This document shows positions 1 to 16,645 of a stretch of 16,645 nucleotides of DNA, one piece after another. This stretch comes from Escherichia coli (GTDB lineage Bacteria; Pseudomonadota; Gammaproteobacteria; Enterobacterales; Enterobacteriaceae), in assembly GCF_003334355.1 (NCBI RefSeq), contig NZ_QOWP01000049.1. One strand, given 5' to 3'. The position numbers and the translations under genes were made by a program. The notes under the pieces were generated by a model, which made no database searches, had not been told where the DNA came from, and saw only the letters and a list, made by a program, of their open reading frames with translations. Positions within the stretch are counted from its first letter, which is position 1, and each line of letters starts with the position of its first letter.

Positions 1-125
1 TGCAGTTGCCATGTTTTACGGCAGTGAGAGCAGAGATAGCGCTGATGTCCGGCAGTGCTTTTGCCGTTACGCACCACCCCGTCAGTAGCTGAACAGGAGG
101 GACAGCTGATAGAAACAGAAGCCAC
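1..125 (-). CDS. insA: IS1 InsA, N-terminal 41 codons (partial, runs off window start)
   Basis: Minus-strand translation from GTG at 125..123 gives [41 protein letters not shown], matching the IS1 InsA N-terminus from memory. Confidence 0.8.
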
Positions 126-180
126 TGGAGCACCTCAAAAACACCATCATACACTAAATCAGTAAGTTGGCAGCATCACC
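1..180 (-). mobile_element. IS1 insertion sequence, partial (terminus at 180, remainder lies beyond window start)
   Basis: Reverse complement of 158-180 is GGTGATGCTGCCAACTTACTGAT, which I recognise as the IS1 terminal inverted repeat, followed by the insA 5' region. Host AT-rich sequence begins at 181. Confidence 0.85.
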
Positions 181-1188
181 CGATTTTCTTATGGGATTAC
201 CGGTGGGAATGTTTTTGTTAGTTGTCTTGTTTTTGTTTTTTTCTATTTCGCAATCTTAATGACAGTGTCAGCAGATATGCCGCTTGTTGACTGTGTTTTG
301 ACTTTGTCACTGTTGGTTTTGCTTATATTTATGGCAGCAAAAGGACTGCGTTATCAGGCCTTGATGACTAGTCTCAAAGGCGTAAGATTTAGTTTTAATT
401 GCTCTTTGAAAGGGTTCTGGTGGGTAACCTTTTTCTTGCCGATTTTAATGGCCATTGGGATGGGGACTGTTTTCTTTATCTCGACAAAGATGCTACATGC
501 CAATAGTTCAAGTAGTGTTATTATATCTGTGGTTCTGATGGCAATAGTTGGTATTGTTTCCATTGGTATTTTTAATGGTACTTTATATAGTCTGGTAATG
601 AGTTTTCTCTGGAGCAATACCAGTTTCGGTATACATCGTTTCAAGGTGAAATTAGATACTACGTATTGTATAAAATATGCCATTCTCGCATTTTTAGCTT
701 TATTACCTTTTCTCGCTGTTGCTGGTTATATTATCTTCGATCAAATATTAAATGCGTATGATAGTTCTGTGTATGCAAATGATGATATTGAGAATTTACA
801 GCAATTTATGGAAATGCAACGTAAAATGATAATCGCGCAGTTAATCTATTATTTTGGGATTGCTGTTAGCACCAGTTATTTAACGGTGTCGTTGCGAAAT
901 CATTTTATGAGCAACCTGTCACTGAATGATGGGCGTATTCGTTTTCGCTCAACTTTAACATACCACGGTATGCTTTATCGCATGTGTGCGTTGGTGGTGA
1001 TATCCGGGATTACGGGCGGTCTGGCTTATCCACTGCTGAAAATATGGATGATTGACTGGCAGGCAAAAAATACGTATTTGCTGGGCGATTTGGATGACCT
1101 TCCTTTAATCAATAAAGAAGAACAACCAGATAAAGGCTTCTTAGCCAGTATTTCACGGGGAATTATGCCTTCTTTACCATTTCTGTAA
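181..1188 (+). pseudogene. 3' portion of a multi-pass inner membrane protein gene (YjgN-like by position), 5' end severed by IS1
   Basis: Frame-1 reading frame is open from the IS1 junction at 181 to TAA at 1186-1188; first ATG is at 259 (309-aa ORF in track). Highly hydrophobic, visibly AT-rich. Convergent with valS, where K-12 carries yjgN (synteny from memory). No start codon or RBS at the junction. Confidence 0.6.
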
Positions 1189-4570: not shown

Positions 4571-4894
<324 letters not shown>

Positions 4895-4895
4895 A

Positions 4896-6673
<1,778 letters not shown>

Positions 6674-7774
6674 GTGATAATCATAAGATATCTGGTGCGG
6701 GAGACGCTCAAAAGCCAGCTGGCGATACTCTTCATCTTGCTTTTGATCTTCTTCTGTCAAAAGTTAGTGAGGATCCTCGGCGCAGCGGTTGACGGCGATA
6801 TTCCGGCGAATCTGGTGCTCTCCCTTCTCGGGTTGGGCGTGCCGGAAATGGCGCAGCTTATCCTGCCATTAAGCCTGTTCCTCGGGCTGCTGATGACGCT
6901 GGGCAAACTGTATACCGAAAGTGAAATTACGGTAATGCATGCCTGCGGCCTGAGCAAAGCGGTTCTGGTGAAAGCGGCAATGATCCTTGCGGTATTCACG
7001 GCAATCGTCGCGGCGGTTAACGTGATGTGGGCGGGACCGTGGTCATCGCGTCATCAGGATGAAGTGTTAGCAGAAGCGAAAGCGAACCCTGGCATGGCGG
7101 CGCTGGCGCAAGGGCAATTCCAGCAAGCGACTAATGGCAGCTCGGTGCTGTTCATCGAAAGCGTTGACGGCAGCGATTTCAAAGATGTGTTCCTCGCACA
7201 AATTCGACCAAAAGGTAATGCACGTCCTTCTGTGGTGGTGGCCGATTCCGGACATTTAACCCAGCTGCGCGACGGCTCCCAGGTCGTCACTCTCAACCAG
7301 GGAACGCGCTTCGAAGGCACTGCACTGTTACGTGATTTCCGCATTACGGATTTCCAGGATTATCAGGCGATCATTGGTCACCAGGCGGTGGCGCTCGACC
7401 CGAACGATACCGACCAGATGGACATGCGCACATTGTGGAACACTGACACCGATCGTGCTCGCGCAGAACTGAACTGGCGTATCACGTTGGTATTCACCGT
7501 GTTTATGATGGCACTTATGGTCGTACCGCTGAGCGTGGTTAACCCACGTCAGGGACGCGTACTGTCGATGCTGCCAGCCATGCTGCTGTATCTACTTTTC
7601 TTCCTGATCCAGACCTCCCTGAAATCGAACGGCGGTAAAGGTAAGCTGGACCCGACGCTGTGGATGTGGACCGTTAACCTGATTTATCTGGCTTTGGCGA
7701 TTGTTCTCAACCTTTGGGACACCGTGCCGGTCCGCCGCCTGCGCGCCAGTTTTTCGCGTAAAGGAGCGGTGTGA
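6674..7774 (+). CDS. lptF: LPS export ABC transporter permease LptF, 366 aa (GTG start)
   Basis: Begins MIIIRYLVRETLKSQ from GTG at 6674; multi-TM protein; matches E. coli LptF (YjgP) from memory. Confidence 0.93.
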   Translation: MIIIRYLVRETLKSQLAILFILLLIFFCQKLVRILGAAVDGDIPANLVLSLLGLGVPEMAQLILPLSLFLGLLMTLGKLYTESEITVMHACGLSKAVLVKAAMILAVFTAIVAAVNVMWAGPWSSRHQDEVLAEAKANPGMAALAQGQFQQATNGSSVLFIESVDGSDFKDVFLAQIRPKGNARPSVVVADSGHLTQLRDGSQVVTLNQGTRFEGTALLRDFRITDFQDYQAIIGHQAVALDPNDTDQMDMRTLWNTDTDRARAELNWRITLVFTVFMMALMVVPLSVVNPRQGRVLSMLPAMLLYLLFFLIQTSLKSNGGKGKLDPTLWMWTVNLIYLALAIVLNLWDTVPVRRLRASFSRKGAV

Positions 7775-8856
7775 TGCAACCTTTTGGCGTACTTGACCGC
7801 TATATCGGTAAAACTATTTTCACCACCATCATGATGACGCTGTTCATGCTGGTGTCGCTGTCAGGCATTATCAAATTTGTCGATCAGTTGAAAAAAGCCG
7901 GGCAGGGGAGTTACGACGCGTTAGGCGCAGGAATGTATACCTTGCTGAGCGTGCCGAAAGATGTGCAAATATTCTTCCCGATGGCGGCTTTGCTTGGGGC
8001 GTTGCTTGGTCTTGGGATGCTGGCGCAGCGCAGCGAACTGGTGGTGATGCAGGCTTCTGGTTTCACCCGTATGCAGGTTGCGCTGTCGGTGATGAAAACC
8101 GCCATTCCGCTGGTCTTACTGACGATGGCGATTGGTGAATGGGTCGCGCCGCAGGGCGAGCAGATGGCGCGTAACTACCGTGCGCAGGCGATGTACGGCG
8201 GCTCGTTGCTCTCTACCCAGCAAGGCTTATGGGCGAAAGATGGCAACAACTTCGTCTACATTGAGCGGGTTAAAGGTGACGAAGAGTTAGGTGGCATCAG
8301 TATCTATGCCTTTAACGAGAATCGTCGTCTGCAATCCGTACGCTATGCCGCTACCGCGAAGTTTGACCCGGAACATAAAGTCTGGCGTCTGTCGCAGGTT
8401 GATGAATCTGATCTGACCAATCCGAAACAGATTACCGGTTCGCAGACGGTGAGCGGCACCTGGAAAACCAACCTCACGCCTGACAAACTGGGCGTGGTGG
8501 CGCTGGATCCGGATGCACTCTCTATCAGCGGTTTGCACAACTATGTGAAGTATCTGAAATCGAGCGGTCAGGATGCCGGACGTTATCAGCTCAACATGTG
8601 GAGCAAAATCTTCCAGCCGCTATCCGTGGCGGTGATGATGCTGATGGCGCTGTCGTTCATCTTTGGCCCACTGCGTAGCGTACCGATGGGTGTGCGTGTG
8701 GTCACCGGTATCAGCTTCGGTTTTGTCTTCTATGTACTGGACCAGATCTTCGGCCCGCTGACGTTGGTTTATGGCATCCCGCCGATCATCGGCGCACTGT
8801 TGCCAAGCGCCAGCTTCTTCTTAATCAGCCTGTGGCTGTTAATGAGAAAATCGTAA
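7774..8856 (+). CDS. lptG: LPS export ABC transporter permease LptG, 360 aa
   Basis: ATG at 7774 overlaps the lptF stop by 1 nt (TGATG); AAGGAG RBS at 7761-7766. The track ORF starts 3 nt earlier at GTG 7771; the ATG gives the expected 360 aa. Confidence 0.92.
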
Positions 8857-10518
8857 CCGAATGAACGAATAAAGGGAGCGAAAGCTCCCTTTATTATTGT
8901 TAGCAAAGTGTGCTTCGTTCATTCCTGAAAAATAATTAAAATCCAATATATTGCAGTGGTGTAGGCATGATAAGACGCGCCAGCGTCGCATCAGGCAAAG
9001 ACAAATCGCGCCTGACTTACCTTCTTCTTCCCCCAGCAAACTCCCCAACATCCCGCGTACAATCTGATTCGTCACCTGGCGGGCGGCGCTTTTCGCCATT
9101 GTTTGCACCACACCATCTTTCTTCCCGCCGCGTGGTCCGGTAGTGCCAAACAAAATATCCTTCAATCCACCAAGAATGCCGTCATCCACCGCCACCTCTT
9201 TCCCTTTCACGGCAGGATTATTTTGCTGCTCGGCGCTTGCCTGTACGCCTTTTTGCAACATCTCATAGGCGGATTCCCGGTCCACGTCATCCTCGTACTT
9301 GCCATACACCGGAGAGTGATTAATCAAGCCATTACGCTCATCTTCCGTCACCGGTCCCATCCGCGAACAAGGCGCAATCACCATCGCCCGTTCCACCACA
9401 GAAGGGCTTCCTTTCGCATCCAGAAAAGAGATCAACGCCTCGCCGGTGCCCAGTTCCTGAATCGCCTTTTCGGTATCAAATGCCGGATTGACCCGCATGG
9501 TTTGCGCCGCAGCTTTTACCGCTTTCTGATCTTTGGGCGTAAAAGTCCGCAAAGCGTGTTGAACGCGATTACCGAGCTGGCCGAGCACGTTATCCGGAAT
9601 ATCGGACGGATTTTGCGAAACGAACCAGACGCCCACGCCTTTTGAGCGAATAAGCCTTATCACCTGCTCAATCTTATCCAGCAGTACCTGCGGTGCATCG
9701 TTAAACAGCAGATGTGCCTCGTCGAAGAAAAACACCAGTTTTGGTTTCTCCAGATCGCCCGCTTCCGGCAATTGTTCATACAACTCCGAGAGCATCCACA
9801 ACAGGCTGGCGGCATACAGTTTCGGCATCTGATAAAGCTTCTCGGCGCTGAGGATATTGATAACGCCTTTACCGTTGGCATCGGTGCGCATCCAGTCTTT
9901 GATATCCAGCATCGGCTCACCAAAGAAGTGTGCTGCGCCTTGCTGTTCCAGCGACAACAGCCCGCGCTGGATGGCACCAACCGATGCGCTACTGATATTT
10001 CCGTACTGATTCTGGAAAGATTTGGCGTTATCGCCGATGTACTGGGTAATCGCCCGCAAATCTTTAAAGTCGAGCAGTAACAGCCCCTGATCGTCAGCAA
10101 TGCGGAAGATGATATTCAGCACGCCAGACTGCACATCGTTGAGATTCAACAGCCGCGCCAGCAACAGCGGCCCCAGATCCGAAACCGTCGCCCGCACCGG
10201 ATGGCCTTTCTCGCCAAAGATATCCCACACCACCACCGGATTGGCATGCGGTTGCCAGTCATTGACGCCGATATTTTTAAGCCTTGTGAGCAGTTTTTCC
10301 GACGCCGTTCCTGCCTGCGCGATACCGGTCAGATCGCCTTTCACATCAGCCATAAACACCGGCACGCCGATTTCCGACAATGACTCTGCCAGTTTTTGCA
10401 GCGTAACGGTTTTACCCGTCCCCGTTGCGCCAGTAATCAGCCCGTGACGGTTAGCCATTCCCGGCAGTAAAAACAGTTCTGTGTCCGGCGTGCGGGCAAT
10501 TAACAGGGGTTCGCTCAT
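8839..10518 (-). CDS. yjgR: YjgR-type P-loop ATPase; ORF in this sequence is 559 codons, about 59 longer than expected
   Basis: ATG at 10518 with GGAGG RBS; Walker A GATGTGKT near the N-terminus. The ORF continues through the REP element and the lptG terminator hairpin and overlaps lptG by 18 nt; the last ~59 codons are probably read-through. Confidence 0.85.
8871..8895. terminator. Intrinsic terminator hairpin downstream of lptG
   Basis: AAAGGGAGC-GAAA-GCTCCCTTT stem-loop at 8871-8892 followed by T-rich ATTATTGTT, 15 nt after the lptG stop. Confidence 0.55.
8961..8996. repeat. REP element
   Basis: GTAGGCATGATAAGACGCGCCAGCGTCGCATCAGGC is the reverse complement of the same REP consensus seen in the 4571-4894 array. 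Confidence 0.65.
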
Positions 10519-10617
10519 GAGATTTCCTCCAGTTTCCTGCCTGGAGTATAGGCAACGGCTGTGCACTCTTCACCGCTAAATTCAGCAGATTGCGAGACGC
10601 CTTCCAAAGAGATTTAA

Positions 10618-10644
10618 GTGCCGGGCGACAGGCACCCGGCAAAG
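10618..10644 (-). terminator. Candidate ahr terminator hairpin
   Basis: Inverted repeat TGCCGGG...CCCGGCA just downstream of the ahr stop on the minus strand, followed by a modest U-rich tract. Confidence 0.3.
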
Positions 10645-10647
10645 GGA

Positions 10648-11667
10648 TCAGAAGTCGGCTTTCAGGACCACGCGGTAGCGCGCTTTACCATCGCGTACAT
10701 GCTGGATGGCGTCGTTAATTTTCGACATCGGGAACAGTTCGGTGGTCGGCGCAACCTTGCTGCGGGCGGCAAAACGCATCAGCTTACGCAGCTCATAAGG
10801 CGTGCCGGTAGCAGAACCAGAGATGCTGCGGTCGCCCGCAATTAACGTAAAGGCCGGAACAGACAGCGGCGTGAGAACCGCACCGACCGTATGGAAATTA
10901 CCGCCATAGGTCAGCGCCTCAAAATAAGGCTGCCAGTCGAGGCTGACGTTCACAGTATTGATAATGAGATCAAACTGCCCCGACAGGGCTTTCAGTGCCT
11001 GCGGATCGCGGCTATTCACCACTTTATCGGCACCCATCGCCAGTACTTCCTGCTCTTTCGCCGGATTAGAACTAAAGGCCGTCACCTCGCATCCCATTGC
11101 GTGCAGAAGTTTTATAGCGATATGCCCCAGCCCGCCAATACCAATTACCCCAACGCGGCTGGTAGCAGTGATATGGTGCATCAACAGTGGTTTAAAGACC
11201 GTGATACCGCCGCACAACAGCGGCCCGGCGGACTCGATATCAATATTTTCTGGCAGTGGAATCACCCATTGCCAGTCCGCACGCAACTTCTCGGCAAAGC
11301 CACCGCGATTCATAATCGTCGGCACCGCACCTTGCTCGCAGTTGATCTGATTACCGCTAATACAGGCGTCGCAGTGACCACAGCTACGCGCCGTCCAGCC
11401 AATCCCGACACGCTGACCGACCTGCAAACCTTTATCCTGCGCGGCGCTCCCGAGTGCCACCACGCGCCCAATCACCTCATGCCCGGCAACCAGCGGATAT
11501 TGTGAAAATCCCCATTCGTTATCGATCATCGACAGATCGGAATGACAAATCCCGCAGTAATCCACCTGCACTTCAACATCTTGTGGCTTCAGCTCACCGG
11601 GATCGTACTCATAAACTTCCAGTTCGCCGCCCGCTTCTTTTGCGGCATAGCTTTTTATCATCGACAT
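10648..11667 (-). CDS. ahr: NADPH-dependent aldehyde reductase Ahr (YjgB), Zn-dependent alcohol dehydrogenase family, 339 aa
   Basis: ATG at 11667 ([14 protein letters not shown]) with GAAGGA RBS; zinc-ligand region GHEVIGRV and Rossmann [10 protein letters not shown] motif. The track ORF is 14 codons longer from an upstream ATG without RBS. Confidence 0.9.
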
Positions 11668-11862: not shown

Positions 11863-11947
11863 GCCGAAGTGGCGAAATCGGTAGACGCAGTTGATTCAAA
11901 ATCAACCGTAGAAATACGTGCCGGTTCGAGTCCGGCCTTCGGCACCA
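11863..11947 (+). tRNA. leuX: tRNA-Leu (anticodon CAA), 85 nt, type II tRNA with long variable arm, encoded CCA
   Basis: Acceptor stem GCCGAAG/CTTCGGC, anticodon loop TTCAAAA, T-loop GGTTCGAGTCC, 3' ACCA. Confidence 0.95.
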
Positions 11948-11960
11948 AAAGTATGTAAAT

Positions 11961-11984
11961 AGACCTCAACTGAGGTCTTTTTTT
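11961..11984 (+). terminator. Intrinsic terminator of leuX
   Basis: AGACCTCA-AC-TGAGGTCT hairpin immediately followed by a 7-T run. Confidence 0.75.
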
Positions 11985-12060
11985 ATGTCTGAAATCCAGT
12001 ATTTATCTACCTTTCCCGCTATATTAACTCTCTCAAGGTCAACCCATATCAACGTACATC

Positions 12061-12120
12061 TACCAACACATGTTGGTACAGATGATGGTATTTCCGGTTC
12101 GATAATGCTTGTACCAACAG
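12061..12120. promoter_or_regulatory. Repeated TACCAACA motifs upstream of the integrase gene (candidate operator or integrase/Xis binding sites)
   Basis: TACCAACA at 12061-12068, its reverse complement TGTTGGTA at 12071-12078 (palindrome with 2-bp spacer), and a third copy at 12112-12119, just 5' of the int RBS. Confidence 0.3.
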
Positions 12121-12133
12121 GGAGGGAATACGC

Positions 12134-13399
12134 ATGGCATTAACAGATATCAAAGTCAGAACAGCCAAGCCAACAGATAAGCAATATAAGCTGACTGATG
12201 GTGGCGGTATGCATCTGCTTGTCCATCCAAATGGTTCTAAGTACTGGCGTTTGCAGTACCGTTATGAGGGAAAGCAAAAGATGTTGGCACTTGGGGTTTA
12301 TCCTGAAATCACACTAGCGGATGCCAGAGTACGCCGTGACGAGGCGCGTAAGCTGCTTGCGAATGGAGTCGATCCGGGAGACAAAAAGAAAAATGATAAG
12401 GTTGAACAGAGTAAAGCACGAACCTTTAAAGAAGTCGCGATCGAGTGGCATAGCACCAATAAAAAGTGGTCTGAAGATCACGCCCATCGTGTGCTAAAAA
12501 GTCTGGAAGATAATCTTTTTGCAGCGCTTGGTGAACGTAATATCGCTGAGTTAAAAACTCGAGATTTATTAGCACCCATTAAGGCCGTGGAGATCTCTGG
12601 ACGTCTTGAAGTGGCAGCTCGTCTTCAACAGCGCACTACAGCCATCATGCGCTATGCAGTACAAAGTGGGTTAATTGATTATAACCCGGCACAAGAGATG
12701 GCTGGGGCGGTTGCTTCCTGTAATCGACAACATCGTCCGGCGCTTGAATTAAAGCGCATCCCTGAGTTGCTTACAAAAATAGATAGCTATACTGGTAGGC
12801 CGCTAACCCGATGGGCGACAGAACTCACTTTGCTGATCTTTATTCGGTCCAGTGAGCTGCGTTTTGCTCGCTGGTCAGAGATCGATTTCGAAGCGTCTAT
12901 ATGGACTATCCCACCGGAGCGGGAGCCTATTCCTGGAGTGAAGCATTCCCATAGAGGCTCAAAAATGCGTACAACGCATCTAGTGCCTCTTTCAACGCAA
13001 GCCCTTGCAATTTTAAAGCAGATAAAACAGTTTTGTGGGTCTCATGACTTGATATTTATTGGTGATCACGATTCGCACAAGCCTATGAGTGAAAATACGG
13101 TAAATAGTGCGTTACGGGTCATGGGGTATGATACAAAAGTTGAGGTTTGTGGTCATGGCTTCCGCACAATGGCCTGTAGTTCATTGATCGAATCAGGTTT
13201 GTGGTCTCGTGATGCTGTTGAACGTCAGATGAGCCACATGGAGCGAAATTCAGTGAGGGCCGCGTATATCCATAAAGCAGAACATCTGGAAGAACGGCGA
13301 TTGATGTTGCAATGGTGGGCCGATTTTCTTGATGCGAACCGGGAGAAGGGTATCAGTCCGTTTGAATACGCAAATGTTAACAATCCGCTGAGAAGGTGA
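12134..13399 (+). CDS. P4-type tyrosine recombinase / integrase, 421 aa, apparently intact
   Basis: Full-length ORF immediately 3' of a tRNA gene; GGAGGG RBS 7 nt before the ATG; sequence resembles P4-family integrases from memory; visibly lower GC than the core genes. Confidence 0.9.
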   Translation: MALTDIKVRTAKPTDKQYKLTDGGGMHLLVHPNGSKYWRLQYRYEGKQKMLALGVYPEITLADARVRRDEARKLLANGVDPGDKKKNDKVEQSKARTFKEVAIEWHSTNKKWSEDHAHRVLKSLEDNLFAALGERNIAELKTRDLLAPIKAVEISGRLEVAARLQQRTTAIMRYAVQSGLIDYNPAQEMAGAVASCNRQHRPALELKRIPELLTKIDSYTGRPLTRWATELTLLIFIRSSELRFARWSEIDFEASIWTIPPEREPIPGVKHSHRGSKMRTTHLVPLSTQALAILKQIKQFCGSHDLIFIGDHDSHKPMSENTVNSALRVMGYDTKVEVCGHGFRTMACSSLIESGLWSRDAVERQMSHMERNSVRAAYIHKAEHLEERRLMLQWWADFLDANREKGISPFEYANVNNPLRR

Positions 13400-13420
13400 C
13401 AGAAGGCTATTCACACACAT

Positions 13421-13442
13421 GCTCTTCCCCATGGGGAAGAGC
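13421..13442. other. Perfect 22-bp palindrome downstream of int (terminator or protein-binding site)
   Basis: GCTCTTCCCCATGGGGAAGAGC, 21 nt after the int stop; a T-run (13460-13472) follows about 18 nt later, too far for a textbook terminator. Confidence 0.35.
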
Positions 13443-13618
13443 AACCTGCTCCAATAAATTTCTTTTTTATTCCGGCTGATAGCACCGCAATCACCCGTTC
13501 CCTTTAAATAGCCACTTAGCATTCGGCGTAAAATTTGACAGAGAAGGACTATCTCAGCAGGAGCTTAAAGTGTGGTTTTAGGCATAATGTCAATTGACTC
13601 ACCATTTGGGAATTGTAG

Positions 13619-13951
13619 ATGATTGACATAGTTTCCCAAACGGAAAAATCACTTCCCTTCTTGGAAGAAAATCTGCGAGCACATATAAAATGGAAACAGC
13701 ACGGCGGCCCTTGTGAAATCCCCAATGGCCTGGCGTTTTGCGCAATTCACCATAAAGTCTTTGATAAAGGATCGATTGGTCTGGATGAAAATATGCGGGT
13801 ACTGGTCTCGGATGTGGTAAACGGCGGAGGGATCGTTGAGAGATTATTCTGGGATTTTGACGGGAAAACTATTGCGTTGCCACAGGTGCGTAAAAATTAC
13901 CCTTTTGAGGGGGTTGTGGAGTGGCATCGGAAAGAGGTTTTTAGGGGGTGA
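13619..13951 (+). CDS. Small ORF (110 aa) carrying only an HNH-type nuclease core; probably a 5'-truncated remnant
   Basis: Motif HGG...PNGLAFCAIHHKVFDKG resembles the C-terminal HNH core (NGLxLCxxHHxxFDxG) of larger HNH endonucleases. An in-frame TAG sits immediately before the ATG and the RBS is weak. Confidence 0.4.
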   Translation: MIDIVSQTEKSLPFLEENLRAHIKWKQHGGPCEIPNGLAFCAIHHKVFDKGSIGLDENMRVLVSDVVNGGGIVERLFWDFDGKTIALPQVRKNYPFEGVVEWHRKEVFRG

Positions 13952-14061
13952 GGTTGATAATACCGTGCCCCCATAATATTGCCATCTCTTGCATTGAGAT
14001 ATTAAAAGCTACAAATGTTCTCCCCATTTTTAAATGTAGACATTTATAGCAATATCAAAAC

Positions 14062-15060
14062 TTACTGTTCAGCTTTTTCAACAACAAAACCATTTTGCCG
14101 TACAAACTCAATCAAGAGTTCAATATTAACAATGCCCCATTGATTAGAAATAGCAACAATTTCACCAGAAGGAAGTGTAATCAACGCATCTTCATTAATA
14201 TGATAGCGACTCTTTTGCTTCTCTGGTATCTGATCGACAAGCATAACCGTCCGTTTTTTAAAGTCTTCACTTAACCCATTTATTAAATCATTATAACTTG
14301 CAGGATTAAATTGATTTATCCAATCGCGTAATAATTCAAGCGCTAATTTACGCTTATTAAGTTCTTTATCTTTATATATATACCACGTATAGTCCTTCTC
14401 TTTTTTCTGACTGCTAATTAGCTGCTCATCACGTTTTTCACGAAATTTAACTTGATATTCTTCCAATTCAGGAACCGGTATGATTTGCTCTGCATTGATC
14501 AGAACATCATCATTAAATCTATAAGGCGTCAGACGAACACATCGAATGTCTACCCCCTTATCTCTTAACCAAATCGCAGTGGTAGTCAGTTCCTTGCTAA
14601 AATCCGATGAAGCCAAAACAATTCTGATATCTTTTCCGAAATCAACAAGCTCAGTTTCATCCAGCTCAACAAATTCAAGTATTTTTTCTTTCGCATCGGC
14701 ATCGCAGTTTTGTTTTTTCAAATACGTCTGGAAATATTCACATGCTTTCGCAAAACTCATTGTGGAAATCATCGCTGCATATCGTAGTGCCTGTAACTCC
14801 ATATGCGCACCAGTTTCATCACGTTTTAATTCGATAACCACTAAATTTGCCTGTTTATCGATTGCCAATAAATCAATTCGCCGACGGCTATCTTCCCAGT
14901 CAGAAAACTCTTCGGAAATCACCAGACAATCAGGAGCAATAATATCTATGTTTTTTTTGATTGCTTCCTGTAAATCATAACGTTCCTGTAATCCTTCCAG
15001 AGTAAAGGTCGTTTTTTCTAAAGCATGTAGTTCTTTATTTGCGATATTGTACAGCGCCAC
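14062..15060 (-). CDS. Uncharacterised protein with N-terminal RecB-like PD-(D/E)xK nuclease motif, 332 aa (GTG start)
   Basis: Uninterrupted 332-codon ORF with AGGAAG RBS; very AT-rich. Residues 61-94 RIDLLAIDKQANLVVIELKRDETGAHMELQALRY give D-x(n)-ExK plus QxxxY. The C-terminal ~200 aa has no motif I recognise. Confidence 0.75.
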   Translation of the reverse strand: MALYNIANKELHALEKTTFTLEGLQERYDLQEAIKKNIDIIAPDCLVISEEFSDWEDSRRRIDLLAIDKQANLVVIELKRDETGAHMELQALRYAAMISTMSFAKACEYFQTYLKKQNCDADAKEKILEFVELDETELVDFGKDIRIVLASSDFSKELTTTAIWLRDKGVDIRCVRLTPYRFNDDVLINAEQIIPVPELEEYQVKFREKRDEQLISSQKKEKDYTWYIYKDKELNKRKLALELLRDWINQFNPASYNDLINGLSEDFKKRTVMLVDQIPEKQKSRYHINEDALITLPSGEIVAISNQWGIVNIELLIEFVRQNGFVVEKAEQ

Positions 15061-15353
15061 GTTTATCTTCCTTTTTTAACTGATTTTACAGGGACTTTAA
15101 CACAGTAAAAATTTTATTTCCTGAGCTGTAATCGATTAAGCTGATGCACTAAATGGGAATCATATAGGGTCATTTCCAGTCTCACTTATAGAAATGGCTA
15201 AAGCATGACTCTCGCCAAAACCGTGTATGTGTTGTACATAACGCGATCATCCCTCTCACAAATTGCCTTTTCTCATGGCATCTCGCCCGGTCCCCCATTA
15301 CAATCACTTTTTGTTTTTTGCGAGCTGCATTCCAGTCTTCAGAGGGTTTTTCG

Positions 15354-15959
15354 ATGATTAAAAATGACAAGGCATGGGTAGGAGACTTGCTGGGCGGGCC
15401 GCTCATGAGCAGGGAAAGCCGCGTCATTGCCGAACTGTTGCTAACCGATCCCGATGAACAGACATGGCAAGAGCAAATTGTTGGCCACAACATTTTACAA
15501 GCCTCTTCTCCTAACACCGCAAAACGTTACGCGGCAACAATCAGGCTTCGCCTGAACACGCTTGATAAAAGCGCGTGGACATTGATTGCCGAAGGTAGTG
15601 AGCGGGAACGCCAACAACTTCTGTTTGTGGCTCTGACGCTACATTCGCCGGTAGTTAAGGATTTTCTGGCTGAAGTGGTGAACGATCTGCGCAGGCAGTT
15701 CAAGGAAAAGTTGCCTGGCAATAGTTGGAACGAATTTGTTAATAGCCAGGTTCGCCAACATCCGGTACTCGCCAGCTACTCAGATTCATCTATTGCAAAA
15801 ATGGGAAACAATCTGGTGAAGGCGCTTGCTGAAGCGGGTTATGTGGATACGCCCCGCAGACGTAACCTGCAGGCAGTTTACCTTTTACCGGAAACTCAGG
15901 CAGTGTTACAGCGCCTGGGGCAACAGGACTTGATATCTATTCTGGAGGGAAAACGGTGA
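15354..15959 (+). CDS. brxA: BrxA-like protein (DUF1819-type), 201 aa; first gene of a BREX-like cluster
   Basis: ATG at 15354 with AGAGGG RBS; ~200-aa, largely helical-looking protein whose stop overlaps the next start (GTGA). Assignment is from size, coupling and gene order, not from a recognised motif. Confidence 0.55.
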   Translation: MIKNDKAWVGDLLGGPLMSRESRVIAELLLTDPDEQTWQEQIVGHNILQASSPNTAKRYAATIRLRLNTLDKSAWTLIAEGSERERQQLLFVALTLHSPVVKDFLAEVVNDLRRQFKEKLPGNSWNEFVNSQVRQHPVLASYSDSSIAKMGNNLVKALAEAGYVDTPRRRNLQAVYLLPETQAVLQRLGQQDLISILEGKR

Positions 15960-16558
15960 TAGATCCCGTTCTTGAATATCGCCTGTCTCAAATCCAGAGT
16001 CGCATTAACGAAGATCGCTTCCTCAAAAATAACGGCTCCGGAAATGAAATTGGTTTTTGGATCTTTGATTATCCCGCGCAGTGCGAACTGCAGGTACGGG
16101 AGCATTTGAAGTATCTGCTCCGGCATCTGGAAAAGGACCATAAATTTGCCTGTCTGAATGTCTTCCAAATCATCATCGATATGCTCAATGAACGCGGCCT
16201 TTTCGAGCGCGTCTGCCAGCAGGAAGTCAAAGTGGGTACTGAGACGCTGAAAAAGCAGCTTGCTGGTCCGTTAAATCAGAAAAAAATCGCTGATTTTATA
16301 GCGAAAAAAGTCGATCTGGCTGCCCAGGATTTTGTCATCCTTACCGGCATGGGCAACGCCTGGCCATTAGTACGCGGTCATGAACTGATGAGTGCCTTGC
16401 AGGATGTCATGGGGTTCACCCCACTGCTGATGTTTTATCCTGGCACCTACAGCGGGTACAACCTTTCCCCGCTCACAGACACCGGTTCACAAAATTATTA
16501 TCGCGCTTTCAGACTGGTACCAGATACGGGACCCGCAGCAACATTGAATCCTCAATGA
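15956..16558 (+). CDS. brxB: BrxB-like protein (DUF1788-type), 200 aa
   Basis: GTG start at 15956 with GGAGGG RBS, overlapping the upstream stop by 4 nt; ~200 aa; followed by a third co-directional gene. Assignment by architecture. Confidence 0.55.
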   Translation: MIDPVLEYRLSQIQSRINEDRFLKNNGSGNEIGFWIFDYPAQCELQVREHLKYLLRHLEKDHKFACLNVFQIIIDMLNERGLFERVCQQEVKVGTETLKKQLAGPLNQKKIADFIAKKVDLAAQDFVILTGMGNAWPLVRGHELMSALQDVMGFTPLLMFYPGTYSGYNLSPLTDTGSQNYYRAFRLVPDTGPAATLNPQ

Positions 16559-16621
16559 AGAGCATAATGAACCGCCCCGGAAATCCTGGAGACTAAACTC
16601 CCTGAGAAAGAGGTAAACAGG

Positions 16622-16645
16622 ATGACTAAAAATACTCGTTTTTCC
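16622..16645 (+). CDS. 5' end of the third gene of the cluster (MTKNTRFS...), runs off the window; would be brxC (large ATPase) if the BREX assignment holds
   Basis: ATG at 16622 preceded by AAAGAGG RBS, 63 nt after the brxB-like stop; only 8 codons visible. Confidence 0.35.

What the first reader, a model, noticed from the sequence alone, without database searches (positions are those of the whole stretch)
8839..9018. yjgR reading frame lacks its expected stop and reads through a REP element and the lptG terminator
From the ATG at 10518 the expected 500-codon protein (length recalled from K-12) would end with a stop at 9016-9018. Here that codon is AAG (plus strand CTT), one substitution away from TAG. 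The frame continues about 59 codons across a REP palindrome (8961-8996) and the lptG terminator hairpin, ending 18 nt inside the lptG 3' end. The tail is cysteine/histidine-rich and unlike coding sequence. This is either a real stop-loss allele or a base-call error.
Basis: partly seen in the sequence, partly recalled or inferred. Interest (0 to 1): 0.5.

Follow-up and report, generated by a model that had tools for sequence, protein, structure and literature searches.

The report
yjgR frameshift at a poly-G tract
One G has been lost from a short run of Gs five codons before the end of the E. coli gene yjgR, so the protein misses its normal stop and gains a 63-residue tail read from non-coding DNA; this is a real but ordinary, recurrent variant.

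Summary
The ORF from ATG 10518 is 559 codons, not 500. It reads through a REP element and the lptG/yjgR hairpin and stops at 8839-8841, 18 nt inside lptG.

The proposed cause (AAG derived from TAG, or a base-call error) is wrong. The normal TAA stop is intact at 9017-9019 but out of frame, because the G tract at 9030-9034 has 5 Gs. In-frame alleles have G6+AA, G7+A (K-12), or G6+A with the first G changed to T (SE11).

The allele is real. The exact protein occurs in four assembled contigs. One of them is 100% identical to the window over the 7,680 nt compared. A relative 0.4% diverged carries the same G5.

The event is recurrent. About 42-44 of 5,426 complete E. coli genomes (about 0.8%) carry a -1 tract, in several backgrounds giving 559 or 545 aa. 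+1 (509 aa) and +2 (560 aa) alleles also exist.

The conserved C-terminus GSLLGGR(R/K)R is lost and replaced by non-coding-derived residues.

Inferred consequence: the new stop lies beyond the terminator, so terminated transcripts would lack a stop codon. The product would then be tagged and degraded, giving a weakened or null allele of a non-essential gene.

Ordinary; low interest.

The parts
8839..10518 (-). yjgR -1 frameshift allele. 559-codon ORF plus stop. Residues 1-496 are normal YjgR; residues 497-559 are read from the former 3' UTR.
   Evidence: Pfam HerA_C covers residues 5-497, which is model positions 3-499 of 502. The exact protein is in NCBI under OWD67549.1, RCQ17340.1, HAH2853308.1 and HAM4701954.1.
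9030..9034 (-). Poly-G tract, G5 here followed by AAGAAGAAGG. This is the site of the 1-nt deletion. In-frame alleles have G6+AA, G7+A (K-12) or T+G6+A (SE11).
   Evidence: It is the only G/C run of 5 or more in the window that lies in this gene.
9017..9019 (-). Ancestral TAA stop codon of yjgR, intact but now in the wrong frame.
   Evidence: All five aligned sequences have GGTAAG here.
8961..8996 (-). REP palindrome, now translated as residues of the tail.
   Evidence: It folds as a hairpin of -14.8 kcal/mol. This part of the query matches at a median of 10 places per E. coli genome.
8871..8892 (.). Hairpin AAAGGGAGC-UUUC-GCUCCCUUU with U-rich runs on both strands. It is a probable bidirectional intrinsic terminator shared by the convergent genes lptG and yjgR, and is now inside the extended ORF.
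   Evidence: -17.5 kcal/mol on the yjgR strand and -20.1 on the lptG strand. The simple scanner did not list it. Terminator function is inferred.
8839..8841 (-). New TAA stop of the extended ORF. It lies 30 nt beyond the hairpin and inside the last codons of lptG.
7774..8856 (+). lptG, convergent with yjgR. Its last 18 nt (8839-8856) overlap the extended ORF.
   Evidence: Annotation of near-identical loci.

Best explanation
This is a naturally occurring -1 frameshift allele of yjgR, which encodes a HerA-like P-loop ATPase of unknown function.

Shown:
- A run of Gs encoding Gly-Gly, five codons before the stop, has lost one G (G6 to G5). The most likely cause is replication slippage.
- The ancestral TAA at 9017-9019 is now out of frame.
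- The conserved terminal residues GRRR are replaced by EEEGKS... plus further residues, 63 in all.
- These residues are read from the REP element, the lptG/yjgR terminator hairpin and the antisense of the last six lptG codons.
- The tail is not evolved coding sequence.
- The same tract has slipped independently in many E. coli and Shigella lineages, giving 559, 545, 560 and 509 aa products.

Inferred:
- The new stop (8839-8841) lies about 30 nt beyond the terminator hairpin. Transcripts that end at the terminator would therefore carry no in-frame stop.
- They would be handled as non-stop messages: tmRNA tagging followed by proteolysis.
- Only transcripts that read through the terminator could yield the 559-aa protein. 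A closely following ribosome could favour such read-through.
- The net effect is most likely a weakened or null yjgR allele, tolerated because the gene is dispensable.
For: Lesion:
- Alignment and tract typing give window G5A2, DETEC-E480 G6A2, K-12 G7A1 and SE11 T+G6A1. The last three all end LLGGRRR*.

Real rather than an error:
- The exact 559-aa protein is on 4 contigs under 4 accessions.
- Contig LYBG01000796.1 is 100% identical to the window over 7,680 nt.
- NRWB01000056.1 differs by 52 SNPs and 0 gaps in 13,386 nt and has the same G5.
- Against the closest complete genome there are only 5 indels in 16.4 kb. The yjgR indel is the only one inside a gene.

Recurrent:
- The G5A2 tract is in 3 of 5,426 complete genomes.
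- The T+G6+A -1 tract is in about 39-41.
- The in-frame G6A2 tract is in 927.
- The 90% cluster of extended proteins has 71 members, with at least four different tail backgrounds among the 15 members listed.
- Further extended clusters of 122, 54 and 44 members exist.
- A +1 allele (G8A1) gives 509 aa.

Loss of a conserved element:
- The C-terminus GSL(L/M)GGR(R/K)R is kept in E. albertii, E. fergusonii, Citrobacter and Enterobacter.
- The Pfam model runs to the normal end. The match stops at model position 499 of 502, and the tail has no domain.

Tail is non-coding in character:
- GC3 is 0.41 against 0.62, and C+H is 12.7% against 1.6%.

Hotspot in the laboratory:
- In mutS-off K-12 lines, frameshift or nonsense mutations recurred in yjgR in both line types.
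- 84-86% of frameshifts in that study were in simple repeats (bioRxiv 10.1101/355404).
Against: - No reads are available, so the tract length in this particular assembly is not directly verified.
- Some -1 calls in complete long-read genomes may be homopolymer errors. Six or seven genomes of one submitter series ('UID23.../UID24...'), of different sizes, all carry the tract. This inflates the 0.8% figure.
- The non-stop/tmRNA consequence and the terminator function of the hairpin are inferred, not measured. The simple terminator scan did not flag the hairpin.
- PGAP annotates the 559-aa ORF as an intact protein. Nothing here shows whether the extended protein accumulates or works.
- The positions of the yjgR mutations in the mutator-line study are not given.
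Confidence: 0.85

Rival explanations
1. Sequencing or assembly error. The isolate really has G6, and one G was dropped in a homopolymer by the sequencing platform or the assembler.
For: - Homopolymer indels are a classic artefact.
- Several complete long-read genomes from a single submitter series share a -1 tract.
- No reads are available for this window.
Against: - The exact protein is in four contigs under four accessions. Two are third-party (TPA) annotations.
- A contig from another assembly is 100% identical to the window over the 7,680 nt compared.
- A relative with 52 SNPs in 13.4 kb has the same G5.
- No other gene in the 16.6-kb window carries an indel relative to the closest complete genome.
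- The window has no other broken homopolymer. All six G/C runs of 5 or more are listed.
Confidence: 0.05
2. Stop-codon substitution. TAG or TAA at 9016-9018 mutated to AAG, a classical stop-loss point mutation.
For: AAG is one substitution from TAG, and it sits where a 500-codon count from the ATG predicts the stop.
Against: - All in-frame alleles have the same GGTAAG at this place.
- The stop is the TAA at 9019-9017, and it is unchanged in the window.
- The only difference in this stretch is the missing G in the tract.
Confidence: 0.01
3. Selected reversible switch (contingency locus). The G tract is kept because slipping between frames turns YjgR off and on, or swaps its C-terminus: basic GGRRR, basic-extended [14 protein letters not shown], or acidic-long EEEGKS.... 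Lineages would benefit from this.
For: - Tracts of G5 to G8 were read directly in DNA, and a G9 is inferred from a 560-aa protein. All three frames occur in natural isolates.
- -1 alleles persist in clones seen on up to 30 contigs.
- In mutS-off lines, yjgR loss-of-function mutations were associated with larger colonies. The authors propose repeat tracts as reversible switches (bioRxiv 10.1101/355404).
Against: - The tract is short (6-7) compared with classical phase-variable tracts (own knowledge).
- It is broken by synonymous changes in large parts of the species: GGA in 927 genomes and CTT in the SE11 type.
- It is absent in Citrobacter and Enterobacter, which encode the same Gly-Gly as GGC GGC. 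The protein end is conserved, not the tract.
- Off-frame alleles are rare, about 0.8% at most.
Confidence: 0.06
4. Functional extension. The 559-aa protein is made, is stable, and its new tail adds or changes a function, for example metal binding through Cys/His or altered hexamer contacts.
For: - PGAP calls it an intact CDS.
- The tail has 4 Cys and 4 His.
- The same frame is open in both intergenic backgrounds, giving 559 and 545 aa.
Against: - The tail sequence follows whatever intergenic element is present, REP-type or the alternative type. It differs almost completely between the two.
- It has no Pfam match and has non-coding composition.
- An open frame of this length arises by chance in 4.5% of shuffles.
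- Tail differences between alleles simply mirror intergenic SNPs.
Confidence: 0.03

Closest known systems
Slipped-strand indels at mononucleotide runs (hotspots of frameshift mutation in E. coli, especially without mismatch repair)
   Same: - Loss or gain of single Gs in a G5-G8 tract.
- Independent recurrence in many lineages.
- yjgR is repeatedly hit by loss-of-function mutations in mutS-off K-12 lines.
   Different: No difference in kind. This particular tract in yjgR was not described in any of the 25 held papers that mention yjgR.
Phase-variable contingency loci with poly-G/C tracts (Neisseria, Haemophilus, Campylobacter; own knowledge)
   Same: A homopolymer inside a reading frame whose length decides the frame. 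Several tract lengths coexist in the species.
   Different: - The tract is short and lies at the extreme 3' end, so the whole domain is still translated.
- The tract is not conserved. It is interrupted by synonymous changes and absent in sister genera.
- No evidence of within-clone switching.
Stop-loss / non-stop alleles handled by trans-translation (tmRNA-SmpB; own knowledge)
   Same: The reading frame has no stop before the predicted 3' end of terminated transcripts. The hairpin is at 8871-8892 and the stop at 8839-8841.
   Different: - The stop codon was not mutated; it was bypassed by a frameshift.
- A stop does exist 30 nt beyond the terminator.
- Whether the message is non-stop therefore depends on terminator efficiency, which was not measured.
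YjgR / DUF853 (Pfam PF05872 HerA_C); solved structure PDB 11kk 'HerA like helicase YjgR'
   Same: Residues 1-496 are a full-length match.
   Different: It lacks the conserved terminal GRRR and carries 63 extra residues.

Membership tests
YjgR / HerA_C (PF05872, DUF853) family | Full-length match to the family profile | tested here: met
   HerA_C E = 1.5e-251, residues 5-497 matching model positions 3-499 of 502. Homologues are 97-99% identical to K-12 YjgR. PDB 11kk matches K-12 YjgR over residues 1-500.
YjgR / HerA_C (PF05872, DUF853) family | Conserved C-terminal end ...GSLLGGR(R/K)R followed by a stop (500 aa) | tested here: not met
   The window ends ...[11 protein letters not shown]... 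plus further residues, 559 aa in all. Orthologues in five genera or species keep GGR(R/K)R*.
Homopolymer slippage frameshift | The difference from in-frame alleles is a change in the number of identical bases in a run, with no other lesion | tested here: met
   G5 against G6 in otherwise identical flanks. PapM-32-1 differs from the window only by the gap over 71 nt.
Homopolymer slippage frameshift | Independent recurrence at the same tract | tested here: met
   -1 alleles occur in G6A2-derived and G7A1-derived backgrounds and in two different intergenic backgrounds. +1 and +2 alleles also exist.
Phase-variable contingency locus | Tract maintained by selection (conserved in length, not interrupted) | tested here: not met
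   Interrupted by GGA in 927 of 5,426 genomes and by CTT in the SE11 type. Encoded as GGC GGC in Citrobacter and Enterobacter.
Phase-variable contingency locus | High-frequency reversible switching within a clone | not testable with these tools
   Needs deep read data or fluctuation assays.
Non-stop mRNA / tmRNA substrate | No in-frame stop codon before the 3' end of the transcript | tested here: inconclusive
   The frame is open through the hairpin at 8871-8892, and the first stop is at 8839-8841. The actual 3' ends were not measured.
Sequencing artefact | Not reproducible in independent assemblies | tested here: not met
   The same protein is in 4 contigs under 4 accessions. A diverged relative has the same G5 tract.

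The most novel reading that the evidence does not exclude
The Escherichia-specific poly-G tract at the end of yjgR acts as a low-rate reversible switch. It cycles the ATPase between a normal form (basic end), a +1 form (short basic extension) and a -1 form. The -1 form is effectively OFF, because its message lacks a stop before the terminator. The OFF state would be advantageous in some niches, as suggested by larger colonies of yjgR loss-of-function lines in experimental evolution.
Probability: 0.06. Interest if true: 0.4.

Novelty: new member of a known kind. Interest (0 to 1): 0.15.

Why it matters
The biological weight is small. yjgR has no known function and is dispensable. The allele is a routine homopolymer frameshift that is already present in public protein databases.

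It has some practical value:
- Annotation pipelines call the 545-560 aa products intact proteins, although they are frameshift alleles reading into a REP element and a terminator.
- The tract is a convenient natural marker of slippage, and of long-read homopolymer error, in E. coli genomes.
- The geometry, with the stop beyond the terminator, gives a clean natural test case for how non-stop rescue and ribosome-dependent anti-termination compete at a convergent gene pair that includes the essential lptFG operon.

Tried and rejected
- Counting the G7A1, G8A1 and G7A2 tracts in the 5,426 genomes with 45-nt queries gave 'No match'. This is an artefact of BLAST's low-complexity filter masking runs of 7 or more Gs. 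K-12 itself has G7A1. The full allele spectrum could therefore not be tallied, and only the G5A2, G6A2 and G6A1 counts are usable.
- In one search, 22 of the 63 matches are the in-frame SE11-type allele (T+G6+A). Two more were ambiguous. This leaves 39-41 true -1 tracts.
- The simple terminator scan did not list the hairpin at 8871-8892. Folding shows it clearly.
- The supplements of the mutator-line paper are not held, so the positions of its yjgR mutations could not be checked.
- Literature searches for yjgR, DUF853, and HerA-like plus YjgR found no functional study.
- PADLOC and NCBIfam gave only weak generic HerA/VirB4-type matches below the curated cut-offs. There is no evidence that this yjgR belongs to a defence system.
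- The idea that the open tail frame is a conserved alternative coding frame was rejected. The tail changes completely with the intergenic element, and such an open frame arises by chance in 4.5% of shuffles.

Full report
**What is in the sequence**

On the minus strand an ORF runs from ATG 10518-10516 to TAA 8841-8839, giving 559 codons. The ORF listing reports 575 aa from an upstream GTG at 10566.

- The in-frame codon at 9018-9016 is AAG.
- From there the frame continues 59 codons, through the REP palindrome (8961-8996) and a strong hairpin (8871-8892).
- It ends 18 nt inside the convergent gene lptG (7774..8856).

The tail is unlike coding sequence:

| Measure | Tail | Body |
|---|---|---|
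| Cys + His | 12.7% (4 C + 4 H in 63 residues) | 1.6% |
| GC3 | 0.41 | 0.62 |

A stop-free run of 62 codons in sequence of this composition arises in 4.5% of dinucleotide-preserving shuffles. The length of the read-through needs no special explanation.

**The cause is not a stop-codon substitution**

I aligned the 3' end with four complete E. coli genomes and typed the tract in all fetched loci. The normal stop is the TAA at 9019-9017. What differs is a run of Gs 11 nt upstream:

| Source | Tract | C-terminal end | Length |
|---|---|---|---|
| Window | CTGGGGGAAGAAGAAGG (G5 + AA, 9030-9034) | ...[17 protein letters not shown]... | 559 aa |
| Strain DETEC-E480 | G6 + AA | LLGGRRR* | 500 aa |
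| K-12 | G7 + A | LLGGRRR* | 500 aa |
| SE11 | CTT + G6 + A | LLGGRRR* | 500 aa |

The window has lost one G. Residues 497-559 (63 residues) replace G497-R500. The AAG-versus-TAG resemblance is a coincidence produced by counting 500 codons on a sequence that is one base short.

**Real allele or error**

The window turns out to be a whole contig of a draft assembly. Its ends are an IS1 (1-180) and an IS1203/IS629-type IS3-family element (16567-16645). Its length equals the longest contig on record for this exact protein.

Evidence that the allele is real:
- The exact 559-aa protein is deposited under four accessions on four contigs: OWD67549.1, RCQ17340.1 and the third-party annotations HAH2853308.1 and HAM4701954.1.
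- One of these contigs, LYBG01000796.1 of GCA_002190165.1, is 100% identical to the window over the 7,680 nt compared.
- A variant with one extra amino-acid change (P0013) is found in GCA_003293365.1. That contig differs from the window by 52 substitutions and no gaps in 13,386 nt, and carries the same G5 tract and the same IS1 junction.
- Against the closest complete genome (strain A3, 98.7%) the window has only five indels in 16.4 kb. The yjgR indel is the only one inside a gene.

A random base-call error is therefore very unlikely. The allele is inherited in a lineage.

**It is a recurrent polymorphism**

Short queries were built so that every 28-nt seed must span the tract. Results among 5,426 complete RefSeq E. 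coli genomes:

| Tract | Genomes |
|---|---|
| G5+AA (-1) | 3 |
| G6+AA (in frame) | 927 |
| T+G6+A (-1) | about 39-41 |

In one search, 22 of the 63 matches were the in-frame SE11 type and two were ambiguous. This gives about 42-44 genomes (about 0.8%) with a -1 tract. They include O157:H7, APEC, ETEC and laboratory strains.

Two cautions apply to that figure:
- Six or seven of these genomes come from one submitter series and have different genome sizes. That pattern suggests some are long-read homopolymer errors, so 0.8% is an upper estimate.
- Queries with G7 or more returned nothing because of low-complexity masking. They say nothing about those alleles.

In the protein collection:
- The 90% cluster holding the window's protein has 71 members. 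Of the 15 listed, 14 are 559 aa, and they carry at least four different tail backgrounds.
- Individual variants are seen on up to 30 contigs.
- Further extended clusters have 122, 54 and 44 members.
- The main 500-aa clusters each hold hundreds to thousands of members.

Other allele classes:

| Class | Example | Product |
|---|---|---|
| -1 in genomes with a different, REP-less intergenic element | also seen in Shigella flexneri | 545/546 aa |
| +1 (G8+A) | strain A3 | 509 aa, ...[14 protein letters not shown] |
| +2 | P0032, P0042 | 560 aa |

**What is lost**

The family profile HerA_C (PF05872) matches residues 5-497, which is model positions 3-499 of 502. Nothing matches the tail.

The normal end GSL(L/M)GGR(R/K)R is conserved in E. 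albertii, E. fergusonii, Citrobacter amalonaticus, C. koseri and Enterobacter asburiae. Outside Escherichia the two glycines are encoded GGC GGC, so there is no G tract. The protein end is under constraint. The tract is only a codon-choice accident of the Escherichia lineage. This argues against a selected switch.

YjgR has a solved structure (PDB 11kk, six chains, 'HerA like helicase YjgR'). I found no functional study of it.

**Likely consequence (inferred)**

The hairpin AAAGGGAGC-UUUC-GCUCCCUUU (8871-8892) has a folding energy of -17.5 kcal/mol on the yjgR strand and -20.1 on the lptG strand. It is followed by U-rich runs in both directions. It is the probable bidirectional terminator of the convergent pair.

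In normal alleles it lies about 125 nt after the yjgR stop. In this allele it is inside the ORF, and the new stop lies 30 nt beyond it. Two outcomes follow from established knowledge of trans-translation and of ribosome-dependent suppression of terminators:
- Transcripts that end at the terminator have no in-frame stop. Ribosomes would run to the 3' end, be rescued by tmRNA, and the product would be tagged and degraded.
- If a closely following ribosome prevents the hairpin from forming, transcription continues antisense into lptG and the 559-aa protein is made.

Either way the conserved basic end is replaced by acidic residues plus a hydrophobic, Cys/His-rich tail. I consider a weakened or null allele most likely. 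The gene is dispensable. In mutS-off K-12 lines, frameshift or nonsense mutations in yjgR arose repeatedly in both line types and were associated with larger colonies. In that study 84-86% of all frameshifts lay in simple repeats (bioRxiv 10.1101/355404). The positions within yjgR are not given there.

**Context**

The window's lineage shows other signs of gene decay:
- yjgN is truncated by IS1 (309 aa against 398 aa in strain A3).
- An IS3-family element sits right after brxB of a BREX island at leuX.

A tolerated frameshift in yjgR fits that picture.

**Verdict**

The cause is a deletion in a poly-G tract, not a substitution in the stop.
- The allele is real, and the event is an ordinary, recurrent homopolymer frameshift.
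- Interest is low. The only mildly interesting points are the three-frame polymorphism of the tract across the species and the stop-beyond-terminator geometry.

Noticed in passing
window 1-180: The left end of the contig is the end of an IS1 element (100% identical to annotated IS1/IS1A copies). It truncates yjgN (DUF898): 309 aa here (259..1188) against 398 aa in strain A3. The same junction is present in the related contig L013.
   Followed up: partly
window 16567-16645: The right end of the contig is the start of an IS3-family element of the IS1203/IS629 type. It includes the first codons of its transposase (MTKNTRFS) and is inserted just after brxB, where brxC follows in strain A3. The window is therefore a whole draft contig bounded by insertion sequences.
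   Followed up: partly
window 11863-16558: tRNA-Leu(CAA) (leuX, 11863-11947) is followed by a P4-type tyrosine integrase (12134..13399), an HNH endonuclease fragment (about 13619-13951), a hypothetical gene (14062..15060, minus strand), and brxA/brxB of a type 1 BREX system (about 15357-16558). This is a defence island integrated at leuX.
   Followed up: partly
window 10519-10647: yjgR is directly next to ahr (10648..11667/11709). The idn (L-idonate) operon, which lies next to yjgR in K-12 (idnR in L003), is absent here, as it is in strains 21515, DETEC-E480 and A3.
   Followed up: no
window 4648-4723 and 4746-4821: There are two tandem Rfam matches to naRNA4 (CssrE, nucleoid-associated non-coding RNA; 73 and 82 bits) in the repeat-rich holC-pepA spacer. 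This spacer also shows an indel and internal repeats when compared with strain A3.
   Followed up: no
window 5655-5849: Rfam match to Ysr276 (Yersinia antisense sRNA, 174.7 bits, full length) on the plus strand, antisense to pepA (4896..6407, minus strand).
   Followed up: no
L007-L009 (E. coli 2013C strains) against window 8860-9010: The lptG-yjgR spacer exists in two forms in the species. One is the REP-containing form seen here. The other is about 42 nt shorter and has a GC-rich palindromic element (CCCCTCACCCTAACCCTCTCCCCAAAGGGGCGAGGGG) instead. The -1 frame is open through both.
   Followed up: partly
P0016 (579 aa; NCBI, single contig): One yjgR variant carries an in-frame tandem duplication of residues about 18-96, which includes the Walker A region ([19 protein letters not shown]... 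appears twice). It may be a real duplication or an assembly artefact.
   Followed up: no
L014 (GCA_043238235.1, DAYIWB010000080.1): This contig encodes the same P0013 protein, yet aligns to the window with 347 mismatches and 47 gap openings over 13.2 kb. That is far noisier than L013. The reason (a low-quality assembly or a mosaic region) was not examined.
   Followed up: no
window 6611-6661 region (by homology to L006 6681..6731): The 16-codon small ORF ytgA, annotated upstream of lptF in strain A3, is also called in the related contigs (16-aa gene in L005, L013 and L014).
   Followed up: no
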